In this document: one piece after another, positions 43,036 to 45,061 of the stretch | Numbering within the stretch: position 1 is the first letter of the stretch | Layout of the letters: every line of letters starts with the position of its first letter | DNA from: the human T2T-CHM13v2.0 reference genome, Homo sapiens | Direction: 5' to 3' (one strand) | DNA length: 64,000 bases | NCBI RefSeq assembly: GCF_009914755.1 | Contig: NC_060932.1 | The notes under the pieces: model-generated | Databases searched by the model: none | Told to the model about the DNA's origin: nothing | What the model saw: only the letters and a program-made list of their open reading frames with translations | Translations under genes and position numbers: made by a program

Positions 43036-44639
43036 CCACACGTATGTGTGTGTATACAGGCACTCCATAATCAATGTACAGATTTTAGGGAGGAAAAAAG
43101 AAAAAGCACCCACACTTTCAATAGTTAGGGGCAGTACAGAGCAGGTATGTCATATATAAACTAACATAATAGGACCTAATTATAGAATAGCTCAAATTTA
43201 GAATATTTTAAAAGATTGTAATTTTAGAACTTTTAGGAATATTCTCACACTGAGTAAATTTAGCAGATATCCTTAAAAGTAGTTTTGAATCACAGGTTAC
43301 TAGTGCATCCATCATTTGCATGGATTTCTAAATGCAACCTGTTGAAATTATTCTTGTTCGTCAAACATGTATCTTGCTAAAAGTAGAATAGAGGAACACT
43401 TCACCTGTGACAAAATTGCCATAAATTCCAGCCAAGTGTTAGTGAGATTTTACTGTGTGTGTGTTTGTGAGTGTGCTTATGTGCACATGGAATTTGAAAC
43501 TTAAGGAGAAAGTCTCCTGTTAACATTTCAAAGGGCCCAGTGACACTACGGATTGGCATATGTGAAAAAAAACAGTATCTCCATTTTATAAAGGTAAGTC
43601 TAAAATTAAAAGACAGACACTAAATTGGTCCTGTTTAGAATTGGCATTGACAGAACTCCTTTCGAAATCTCAGCGGTACAGAAAGTCAAGACTTTAAGAT
43701 TTTAAGTCTTTGAAATGATTAGCATAAACAGGCCCAAGATGTTAAAGAGAAAAATCCTAAATGTCTTCAAATTTTAACAGGAACCACAATTGCATGGATA
43801 TATAATTTTTGTAAAAGAAAGTTGTTCTATTGTTCTTTCCTTTAATGCAATTGAAAATTTAAATTAACCTACAGGTTAATCAGTTTTCCTCAAGCAATTA
43901 TAAAATCCTAAGACAAAGGATTCGTGAGTCAATATTTAATAGTTTCTGAAGACTTTTAGATTTAAATTAATTTTTTATATTGCTCAGAGCACAGCAGGAA
44001 ATCACATGTAGAAAAGGAAACTAGATTGTTTACAGTAAACTTTGTGTTTTTGAATTATTAATTTAATTTGAAAAATGTAGTGGCTAGGCAGAAGTTCAAT
44101 AGGAAGCATGTGATTCTTAATGAGTCCAGGCCAACATTAGATTAAGTAGAACAGATAGAAAGTAATAACCTTTTCATAAAATGAAAAGTGTTCGTGTATT
44201 CTGCTTTTTTTTTTTTTTTTTTTGACTTACAATGAAAGAAATGTAGCTACCAATAGTAAAAATGAATTAGAGCATTATTTGCTCTGGGTCTAGTATGACT
44301 GATGCATGTTCCCTCTGCTTGTTTCCTTGTTAGGGCTTATGGCCAGAAGAGATTCCAGTTTTAAGTACCAATTTCCCATTGAATTATTTGAAATTGGAGC
44401 TGCCTGATATGAATGACTTCCCGTGAAATGAAATTATAGTTAGGCTGACAGACTTACCTATAAAACTGTAAATGCAGTAATATGTATGCATGGGCATGCT
44501 ACTAATTTTATTGAAGACTTAACCAAGCTTTCTATGCAACTAATATAGATCATGAGCAGTGTTCATGTAGGCATGGAGTCCTGACTCTCTGGAAAGAGTT
44601 TCTGTAGACATCGCTTGATTTTAACCCTTAAATTATTAC

Positions 44640-44716
44640 TGACTGGTAGGAGAAAAAGGCAAGAGAAGGGAGGGGGCTCTAGAAAGAAAATCTGGGTCCC
44701 ACCTTCATGGAAATGA
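44640..44716 (+). pseudogene. Non-functional counterpart of the rodent beta4 juxtamembrane linker exon (pseudo-exon)
   Basis: With two +1 shifts it reads (M)TGRRKRQEKGG/ALERK/LGPTFMEM(K), versus recalled rat NDF-beta4 MTSRRKRQETEKPLERKLDHSLVKESK. It is preceded by TAC rather than TAG and followed by A|gtaagg, and lies between the beta and linker-1 exons. Confidence 0.75.
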
Positions 44717-45061
44717 GTAAGGAAATTTATTATTGACTTCCTTGGAAAATGAATGTTTTCACGTGGATGTTCCAAAGTTTGTATTAAGAAAGCAAATGGG
44801 AAAAAAAATGACCAATTTTTGACCAATTGAGTGTTGCACGGAGGCAAGAGAAATTTATCTGGATTTGAATAAATTATTTTGCTGTGAATATTGTGCAACC
44901 AAGTTAATCGTAACTAAATCCCCTAGCTTTTAATTTATGAAAAATATAGCTTATTTGCTTGTGTACACTGGACCCAAGGCAGAGGAAATTATTATATATA
45001 GTGCTTCCCATTATCCTTGTTATGCAATGTACTTTTTGATATATGTGTTTGTGTGCATATA

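What the first reader, a model, noticed from the sequence alone, without database searches (positions are those of the whole stretch)
44620..44722. Fossil (or proto-) beta4 linker exon: human copy of a rodent NRG1 exon with a dead acceptor and frameshifts
Seen: TG ACT GGT AGG AGA AAA AGG CAA GAG AAG GGA GGG [G] GCT CTA GAA AGA AAA [T] CTG GGT CCC ACC TTC ATG GAA ATG A|gtaagg. Joined to the phase-1 A of the beta exon and the AG of the TM exon, it spells (M)TGRRKRQEKGG-ALERK-LGPTFMEM(K). Recalled: the rat NDF-beta4 linker is MTSRRKRQETEKPLERKLDHSLVKESK, which implies a 78-nt phase 1-1 exon. Both predicted boundaries fall in the right place. A donor consensus follows the final A (44717), while the acceptor position reads TAC (44637-44639) instead of TAG, and the length is 77 nt. 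Inference: the beta4 stalk, with its furin-like RRKR motif that could allow shedding without ADAM17/BACE1, was either lost in the human lineage or exonised only in rodents. A C>G change at 44639 would create an out-of-frame poison exon.
Basis: partly seen in the sequence, partly recalled or inferred. Interest (0 to 1): 0.8.

Follow-up and report, generated by a model that had tools for sequence, protein, structure and literature searches.

The report
Dead human copy of NRG1 beta4 exon
An intron of the human neuregulin-1 gene holds a broken, unspliceable copy of a small alternative exon that rats, mice, a beaver and a lemur are annotated as using, so humans probably lost one variant of this growth factor's membrane-side linker.

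Summary
Window 44640-44716 (77 nt, + strand) lies between the NRG1 beta exon and stalk exon 1. Read in three frames, it spells a near-complete copy of the rodent "beta4" juxtamembrane linker.

Homology is only marginal with mouse and rat queries. It is decisive with two newly found forms. The beaver stalk scores 71 against shuffles of 35.9±3.2 (0 of 500 reach it). The lemur stalk scores 60 (0 of 500).

The human copy has AC where the acceptor AG should be, and a good GTAAG donor. It carries two +1 frameshifts, one lost codon and an in-frame TGA, and no RefSeq transcript uses it.

Beta4-type stalks were found in 24 database proteins from 16 species: 14 muroid rodents, Castor canadensis and the primate Eulemur rufifrons. 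So the exon is not rodent-only, and the human copy is more likely a fossil than a proto-exon (about 0.7). That polarity rests largely on one predicted lemur model, and no non-human genomic DNA could be read.

The furin-shedding idea is untested, although R-x-K/R-R is kept in 21 of 24 stalks. This is an exon-loss case of moderate interest.

The parts
44640..44716 (+). Pseudo-exon body: the human counterpart of NRG1 stalk exon 4 (beta4 linker). It is 77 nt long, against 78 nt inferred for murids and beaver and 81 nt for the lemur (lengths inferred from the protein stalks).
   Evidence: Sequence. Frameshift-aware alignment to the Castor, Eulemur, rat and mouse stalks. Single copy in the human assembly.
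44637..44639 (+). Acceptor position reads TAC, where a spliced exon needs AG at 44638-44639. The upstream 22 nt are 64% pyrimidine, interrupted by A runs.
   Evidence: All 10 internal annotated acceptors compared in the window end in AG.
44717..44722 (+). Retained donor-like site, TGA|GTAAGG. It matches CAG|GTAAGT at 5 of 9 positions, the same as the real beta and stalk-1 donors.
44642..44665 (+). Segment 1, in the frame the beta exon would set: T G R R K R Q E. This is identical to the lemur stalk and matches beaver at 7 of 8. The R-R-K-R codons are at 44648-44659.
44667..44699 (+). Segment 2, shifted +1: R E G A L E R K S G S. The extra base lies somewhere in the G/A run 44664-44675.
   Evidence: beaver MEGLLERKSGH.
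44701..44715 (+). Segment 3, shifted +1 again: T F M E M. One codon is missing relative to rodent F-M-K-E-M and beaver F-I-Q-E-M.
44714..44716 (+). TGA that would be in frame if the 77 nt were spliced after the beta exon.
39991..40049 (+). NRG1 beta EGF-variant exon. It ends TAC A, which would give the A of the ATG codon at the start of the stalk.
   Evidence: the hub's annotation table, and the rat protein mapping.
46914..46937 (+). NRG1 stalk exon 1 (HLGIEFM), downstream of the pseudo-exon as in rodent beta4+1 isoforms.
51725..51827 (+). NRG1 transmembrane exon (AEELYQKR...), the normal 3' partner.

Best explanation
Window 44640-44716 is the human orthologue of NRG1 stalk exon 4, the cassette that gives the "beta4" juxtamembrane linker of rat NDF-beta4a and mouse Nrg1. 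In species that use it, the exon is spliced in phase 1-1 between the beta EGF exon and either stalk exon 1 or the transmembrane exon. It inserts about 26 residues that begin M-T-x-R-R-K-R-Q.

In human it cannot work. The acceptor AG is AC. Two +1 frameshifts and a one-codon loss break the frame. Any inclusion would stop at a TGA in the last codon.

A beaver and a lemur are annotated with an intact version, and the human N-terminal eight codons equal the lemur's. The exon therefore most likely existed in the common ancestor of primates and rodents and decayed on the lineage to humans. It is a fossil rather than a proto-exon, and it has no present function.

Shown: the homology, the position, the lesions and the species distribution of annotated forms. 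Inferred: the ancestral state, the loss on the human lineage and the lack of any current role.
For: - The sequence and its three frames are.
- The rat and mouse stalks come from the database and match the recalled peptide.
- The position and order (beta, then 4, then 1, then TM) follow from isoforms carrying both 4 and 1 and from exon-by-exon mapping of the rat protein onto human chromosome 8.
- Significance: rat 1 of 1000 and mouse 19 of 1000 shuffles. The muroid profile gives 8 of 400 window-wide and 1 of 400 within the intron. Castor gives 0 of 500 (71 against a null maximum of 49) and Eulemur 0 of 500 (60 against 55).
- The alignment is end to end, 44639-44721, with the donor at the homologous place.
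- AC replaces AG while all real acceptors compared are AG, and the donor is as good as real neighbours.
- Conceptual inclusion gives a TGA.
- No RefSeq exon lies here (hub table).
- Distribution: a profile search ranked 1840 NRG1-like proteins. Among the best 120 listed, 24 beta4-type stalks come from 16 species: 14 muroids plus Castor canadensis (Castorimorpha) and Eulemur rufifrons (Strepsirrhini).
- The beaver and lemur models are full length, contain no X, and are 94.5% and 92.8% identical to rat outside the stalk.
- The frame is preserved in the Muroidea, beaver and lemur forms: stalks of 27 aa (29 in cricetids), 27 aa and 28 aa.
Against: - No non-human genomic DNA could be read, so the ancestral acceptor and the indels are not polarised directly.
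- Outside the mouse-related rodents, the case for an old exon rests on one predicted lemur isoform. Whether transcripts support it is unknown, and it could be a homology-driven model.
- Many well-annotated species in the lists show only beta1 or beta2 stalks. These include other lemurs, monkeys, apes, squirrels, guinea pig, rabbit, carnivores and ungulates.
- Only the best 120 of 1664 and of 1840 hits were visible, so further beta4-like forms may exist.
- The stalk evolves much faster than the rest of the protein. Identity to mouse is 70-85% in cricetids against 95-96% elsewhere, and beaver to rat is 15 of 27 against 94.5% elsewhere. That is typical of young or weakly constrained exons.
- Cricetid queries alone are not significant window-wide.
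- No counterpart was detected in the paralogous NRG2 interval, so there is no sign of deep antiquity.
Confidence: 0.7

Rival explanations
1. Proto-exon. The stretch was never a working exon on the human lineage. An ancestral purine-rich intronic segment with a ready-made donor was exonised independently, or once in mouse-related rodents and separately (or only on paper) in a lemur. Human then simply shows the unexonised state after neutral drift.
For: Annotated use is confined to 16 species, 15 of them rodents of one clade. The stalk evolves fast. Cricetids have even moved the donor by two codons, to ...RKE, which shows that the splice sites are labile. The abstract of bioRxiv 10.1101/009282 (search listing) states that most new mammalian exons arise from unique intronic sequence. 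Three indels in 77 nt is about what neutral human-rodent divergence would give; this last point is an inference from recalled rates.
Against: The same boundaries, phase and N-terminal M-T-G-R-R-K-R-Q are seen in lemur, beaver and the human relic. The frame is preserved in three clades. Independent creation of the same AG at the same place is unlikely. Human-to-beaver identity is 18 of 25 codons (72%), against 15 of 27 stalk positions (56%) for beaver to rat.
Confidence: 0.22
2. The element still does something in human. It could be a conserved intronic splicing regulator (a purine-rich or G-run element), or an exon used through a cryptic acceptor such as the AG at 44648-44649.
For: The similarity to beaver over about 77 nt of intron is high. 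The donor is intact. AG dinucleotides exist inside the element, giving 67-nt, 64-nt and other products.
Against: No RefSeq transcript uses it (hub table). The internal AGs have poor pyrimidine tracts (0.05-0.55), and most give lengths that are not a multiple of 3. The 67-nt version shifts the transmembrane exon out of frame. There were no Rfam or Pfam hits on the element itself.
Confidence: 0.06
3. Chance resemblance between a purine-rich intronic tract and a K/R/E-rich peptide.
For: Plain tblastn gives only E = 0.2 for 9 residues. Vole and hamster queries are not significant window-wide.
Against: Castor and Eulemur stalks give 0 of 500 shuffles, at about 11 and 6 standard deviations above the null. 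Rat gives 1 of 1000. The strand and intron are correct, the match is end to end with a donor at the right base, and the region is single copy.
Confidence: 0.02

Closest known systems
Rat NDF-beta4a / mouse Nrg1 beta4 juxtamembrane linker (stalk exon 4), e.g. P0125 (rat, 662 aa) and P0123 (mouse, 663 aa)
   Same: It sits in the same intron, on the same strand and in the same order relative to the beta, stalk-1 and TM exons. The start is the same (A|TG ACT ...). The donor is at the homologous base. The motifs RRKRQE and LERK are shared.
   Different: The human copy has AC instead of AG and is 77 nt rather than 78 nt. It needs three frames and has an in-frame TGA. It is not in any RefSeq transcript.
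Predicted beta4-type isoforms of Castor canadensis (P0142) and Eulemur rufifrons (P0143)
   Same: These are the closest sequences to the human relic. MTGRRKRQ is identical, and beaver LLERKSG matches human ALERKSG.
   Different: They are open, in phase and annotated as coding. They are computational models whose transcript support I could not see.
Human NRG1 stalk variants 1, 2 and 3 (beta1, beta2, beta3)
   Same: They use the same splice junctions of the beta and TM exons. A truncated product from the pseudo-exon would resemble the beta3 type in lacking the TM domain.
   Different: Those variants are used and annotated. The pseudo-exon is not.
Lineage-specific gain and loss of alternative exons, and mutation-activated pseudoexons
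   Same: This is a short cassette with one surviving splice site in unique intronic sequence. The abstracts seen in search listings (bioRxiv 10.1101/009282; PMC3606458) describe new exons arising from unique intronic sequence, and pseudoexons sitting one mutation from inclusion.
   Different: Here the likely direction is loss rather than gain. No activating human variant is known to me.

Membership tests
NRG1 stalk exon 4 (beta4 linker cassette) | Lies between the beta EGF exon and stalk exon 1 on the coding strand | tested here: met
   44640-44716 lies between 39991-40049 and 46914-46937. Rodent isoforms with 4 followed by 1 fix the order.
NRG1 stalk exon 4 (beta4 linker cassette) | Sequence homology to the beta4 stalk peptide | tested here: met
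   Shuffles reaching the observed score: Castor 0 of 500, Eulemur 0 of 500, rat 1 of 1000, mouse 19 of 1000.
NRG1 stalk exon 4 (beta4 linker cassette) | AG acceptor at the 5' boundary | tested here: not met
   TAC at 44637-44639.
NRG1 stalk exon 4 (beta4 linker cassette) | GT donor at the 3' boundary | tested here: met
   TGA|GTAAGG at 44714-44722, a 5 of 9 match to the consensus like the real neighbouring donors.
NRG1 stalk exon 4 (beta4 linker cassette) | Phase 1-1, length a multiple of 3, and an open frame | tested here: not met
   The length is 77 nt. Three frames are needed. There is a TGA in frame at 44714-44716.
NRG1 stalk exon 4 (beta4 linker cassette) | Included in mRNA | not testable with these tools
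   No RefSeq exon here (hub table). No RNA-seq access.
Proprotein-convertase (furin-type) site R-x-K/R-R | Motif present in the linker | tested here: met
   RRKR is encoded at 44648-44659. The motif is present in 21 of 24 beta4-type stalks and absent in Cricetulus (2 proteins) and Arvicola (1 protein). The consensus itself is recalled knowledge.
Proprotein-convertase (furin-type) site R-x-K/R-R | Actual cleavage by a convertase | not testable with these tools
   No paper on beta4 processing was found in the held library.
Poison exon or cryptic exon in human | Spliced at some level, introducing a premature stop | not tested
   Only the conceptual product was computed. No splice predictor or expression data were available.

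The most novel reading that the evidence does not exclude
The RRKR-bearing beta4 stalk may have been an ancestral, convertase-cleavable release module of NRG1 in early primates and rodents. Haplorhine primates, humans included, would then have lost it. If so, rodent models can release a form of NRG1 by a route that humans lack.

The human relic also keeps its donor and sits one base (44639) from regaining an acceptor. Splicing there would yield an EGF-beta ligand with a 25-residue tail and no membrane anchor, or an NMD target. That makes it a candidate cryptic exon in disease or tumours.
Probability: 0.15. Interest if true: 0.6.

Novelty: new member of a known kind. Interest (0 to 1): 0.4.

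Why it matters
NRG1 is a heavily studied ligand in myelination, the heart, schizophrenia genetics and cancer fusions. Its juxtamembrane linker is said to set susceptibility to sheddases (PMC7297728, passage seen).

Rats and mice can make a linker variant that the human gene can no longer encode. That is a concrete species difference to keep in mind when rodent data on NRG1 processing are carried over to humans.

The locus is also a clean, datable example of alternative-exon decay. The donor is kept, the acceptor is lost and the frame is broken, all in a major disease gene.

Beta4 appears to be a minor isoform, and its linker evolves quickly where it is present. The practical weight is therefore modest.

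Tried and rejected
- A 25-aa query was too short for the protein search. I used the EGF exon instead.
- Plain tblastn was only marginal (E = 0.2), so I wrote a frameshift-aware aligner. Its first profile run timed out and was rerun faster.
- Vole, hamster and lemming queries truncated to 27 aa did not rank the locus first. Cricetid 29-aa queries rank it first on the + strand but are not significant window-wide.
- Mapping the whole rat protein onto the human genome found the flanking exons but not the stalk, as expected for a frameshifted relic under a strict first look.
- The NRG2 EGF-to-TM interval (17 kb) shows nothing above chance: 203, 93 and 46 of 300 shuffles reach the observed score.
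- There were no Pfam hits for the + strand 43-aa frame or the 116-aa minus-strand frame.
- There were no Rfam hits on the element. Sub-threshold mir-297-like hits fall on a TG/TA microsatellite about 320 nt downstream of the pseudo-exon. There is no tandem repeat in the element.
- Literature: ten searches found no paper on a human beta4 exon or its loss. The only beta4 hit was a rat NDF-beta4a bait construct (PMC2156184). An apparent NRG1 hit in PMC2711938 was only a journal DOI string.
- Three look-ups of recalled ids for older NRG1 papers were not held. The original rat cloning paper and the shedding papers were therefore not read, and supplements were not consulted.

Full report
**1. The observation**

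One search shows the quoted sequence at the stated place. The candidate exon body is 44640-44716 (77 nt). It is preceded by ...ttattac, with TAC at 44637-44639, and followed by gtaagg at 44717-44722.

Searches give the three forward frames: LTGRRKRQEKGGGSRKKIWVPPSWK*...GALERKSGSHLHGNE* and ...NLGPTFMEMSK. No single frame is open across the element.

The flanking real exons read as expected. The beta exon ends TAC A|gtacgt. Stalk exon 1 is AG CAT CTT GGG ATT GAA TTT ATG G. The TM exon starts AG GCG GAG GAG.

**2. Is the recalled rat peptide right?**

A search with the window's own EGF exon showed that the protein database holds named vertebrate NRG1 isoforms. It returned 1664 hits, of which the best 120 were listed.

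Among those 120, one mouse protein (P0073) carries MTSRRKRQETEKPLERKLDHSLVKETK between ...MASFY and AEELYQ. A further 49 carry KHLGIEFME (beta1), 20 carry K (beta2), and 50 have no such junction.

A region search with that stalk returned 22 proteins from 24 candidates, all muroid rodents. PMC2156184 (passages) uses "NDF-beta4a 290-662" as a bait, which matches that length.

Mouse and rat isoforms P0130, P0131 and P0133 contain the stalk followed by HLGIEFME. The genomic order is therefore beta, then 4, then 1, then TM. The human element sits in exactly that interval.

**3. Is the match more than chance?**

Plain tblastn gives only LTGRRKRQE against MTSRRKRQE, E = 0.2. I therefore wrote a local protein-to-DNA aligner using BLOSUM62, frameshift penalties of 8-9 and gap penalties of 12-13. 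I ran it on both strands of the 64-kb window.

| Query | Score at the locus | Next best in window | Shuffles reaching the score (window-wide) | Within the beta-to-exon-1 intron, + strand |
|---|---|---|---|---|
| Rat | 52 | 37 | 1 of 1000 | - |
| Mouse | 49 | 37 | 19 of 1000 | - |
| Acomys | 46 | 38 | - | - |
| Peromyscus (27 aa) | 46 | 38 | - | - |
| Muroid profile | 41.1 | 33.25 | 8 of 400 | 1 of 400 |
| Cricetid 29-aa queries (four runs) | 38.8-46 | 34.2-39 | 110, 82, 21 and 58 of 300 | 3-6 of 300 |
| Castor | 71 | 36 | 0 of 500 (null 35.9±3.2, max 49) | 0 of 500 |
| Eulemur | 60 | 35 | 0 of 500 (null 37.6±3.7, max 55) | 0 of 500 |

- Lemming, hamster and vole queries cut to 27 aa did not rank the locus first.
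- Cricetid 29-aa queries put their best + strand hit here, but they are not significant window-wide.
- The decisive result came after the beaver and lemur forms were found (section 5).
- The beaver alignment runs end to end, 44639-44721.
- The 221 nt around the element are single copy in the human assembly.

**4. Anatomy of the lesions**

Against the beaver stalk MTGRRKRQDMEGLLERKSGHIFIQEMK, the human element reads as three pieces:
- TGRRKRQE at 44642-44665.
- After one extra base in the G/A run, REGALERKSGS at 44667-44699.
- After another shift near 44700, TFM-EM at 44701-44715.
- GTAAGG follows.

That gives 18 identical residues out of 25. Relative to a 78-nt exon, the simplest account is +1, +1 and -3, which makes 77 nt. 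Other placements are possible without DNA from other species. One example is an extra TCC codon plus a 2-nt loss.

Splice sites:
- The acceptor dinucleotide is AC. All ten internal annotated acceptors I compared are AG.
- The upstream tract is 64% pyrimidine, at the low end of the real sites (0.55-1.00).
- The donor TGA|GTAAGG matches the consensus at 5 of 9 positions, the same as the real beta and stalk-1 donors.

Conceptual splicing of the 77 nt after the beta exon gives ...MASFYMTGRRKRQEKGGGSRKKIWVPPSWK and then TGA at 44714-44716. Whether it would actually be spliced is untested.

An internal AG at 44648-44649 would give a 67-nt out-of-frame product.

**5. Fossil or proto-exon?**

I built a profile from eight muroid segments, each made of the beta-exon end, the stalk and the TM-exon start. 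I searched the longer proteins with it, so that every beta-type NRG1 became a candidate and was ranked by its stalk. This gave 1840 hits, with the best 120 listed.

The ranking was:
- Twenty muroid beta4 forms at 129-137 bits.
- Castor canadensis isoform X15 at 110 bits.
- Eulemur rufifrons isoform X3 at 100 bits.
- An artificial tagged construct (P0001) at 105 bits, which I ignore.
- Two aberrant rat models at 62-63 bits.
- A plateau of beta1 and beta2 forms at about 57 bits.

The new stalks are MTGRRKRQDMEGLLERKSGHIFIQEMK (beaver, 27 aa) and MTGRRKRQEMEEGVLGRKIGISIPKQGK (lemur, 28 aa). Both models are full length (662 and 664 aa) and contain no X. They are 94.5% and 92.8% identical to rat outside the stalk. 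Taxonomy confirms Castorimorpha and Strepsirrhini.

So beta4-type stalks occur in 24 proteins of 16 species, and one of those species is a primate. The human TGRRKRQE is identical to the lemur's.

The same boundaries and phase are shared, and the frame is preserved in the Muroidea, beaver and lemur forms. This makes one old exon with later loss on the human lineage the simpler history. I put it at about 0.7.

Evidence against, told in full:
- The primate evidence is a single computational model whose transcript support I could not see.
- Beaver belongs to the same large rodent clade as the muroids (recalled phylogeny).
- Many deeply annotated mammals in the lists show no beta4 form.
- Only 120 rows per search were visible. 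A very diverged stalk would hide in the 57-bit plateau.
- The linker evolves fast. Identity to mouse is 70-85% in cricetids against 95-96% for the rest of the protein, and beaver to rat is 15 of 27.
- Cricetids have shifted the donor by two codons, to ...RKE.
- The paralogous NRG2 interval has no counterpart.

No non-human genomic DNA is reachable with these tools, so the AG/AC change and the indels are not polarised directly.

**6. How it works, and does not work**

In rodents the cassette adds a basic, fast-evolving linker. Its most conserved part is M-T-x-R-R-K-R-Q. An R-x-K/R-R motif is present in 21 of 24 stalks and lost in Cricetulus (two proteins) and Arvicola (one protein).

That this motif is a proprotein-convertase site is recalled knowledge and was not tested here. 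A review states that the linker exons set susceptibility to sheddases (PMC7297728, passage seen).

In beta4 forms without exon 1, the HLGIEFME segment is absent. A different release route is therefore plausible, but this is inferred.

In human the element is, on present evidence, inert intron.

**7. Novelty and literature**

Ten full-text searches found nothing on a human beta4 exon, its loss, or a pseudo-exon in this intron. The library lacks most subscription papers. The original rat cloning paper and the shedding papers could not be read.

The phenomenon itself, lineage-specific exon gain and loss, is well known. The abstract of bioRxiv 10.1101/009282 was seen in the listing.

**8. Verdict**

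This is a new example of a known kind of event, of moderate interest (0.4). It matters mainly as a human-rodent difference in NRG1 linker repertoire and as a neat, datable case of exon decay.

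Noticed in passing
window 45039-45103: A TG/TA microsatellite about 320 nt downstream of the pseudo-exon gives sub-threshold Rfam matches to mir-297 and mir-1277 (41.8 bits against a gathering score of 90). This is most likely a repeat artefact.
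   Followed up: partly
window 44563-44913, minus strand: A 116-codon stop-free frame runs antisense across the pseudo-exon. It has no Pfam match and is probably chance in this composition.
   Followed up: partly
proteins P0135-P0141 (cricetid rodents): Cricetid beta4 stalks end ...K-E-[MTI]-R-K-E, two codons longer than murid ones. Human read-through of the donor gives E-M-S-K-E. Cricetids therefore seem to have lost the murid/human-type GT and to use a donor 6 nt downstream.
   Followed up: partly
proteins P0129 and P0134 (Peromyscus, 663 aa): The stalk joins the TM exon as ...RKEELYQKR, which lacks the usual A or EA of AEELYQ. This suggests an alternative junction at the TM exon acceptor in these models.
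   Followed up: no
proteins P0126 and P0127 (rat UniProt models, 638 aa): The beta4 stalk follows aberrant residues (..YLFIRRVNIV.. and ..YLCNPRDNIV..) in place of the alpha/beta EGF exon. These are probably mis-predicted models.
   Followed up: no
four stored proteins, stalk KHLGIEFMDSSCLAAQSVLSE: A different, longer stalk variant extends stalk 1 in four database proteins. I did not map which species carry it.
   Followed up: no
protein P0001 (metaclust, 285 aa): An artificial tagged construct with two copies of the human NRG1 beta1 EGF domain, a His tag and linkers sits in the protein database. It ranks high in searches.
   Followed up: no
window 60573-60714: The hub table lists two alternative ends (60712 and 60714) for this exon. 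With 60712 as the end, the next bases are not GT, so 60714 looks like the end with a canonical donor.
   Followed up: no
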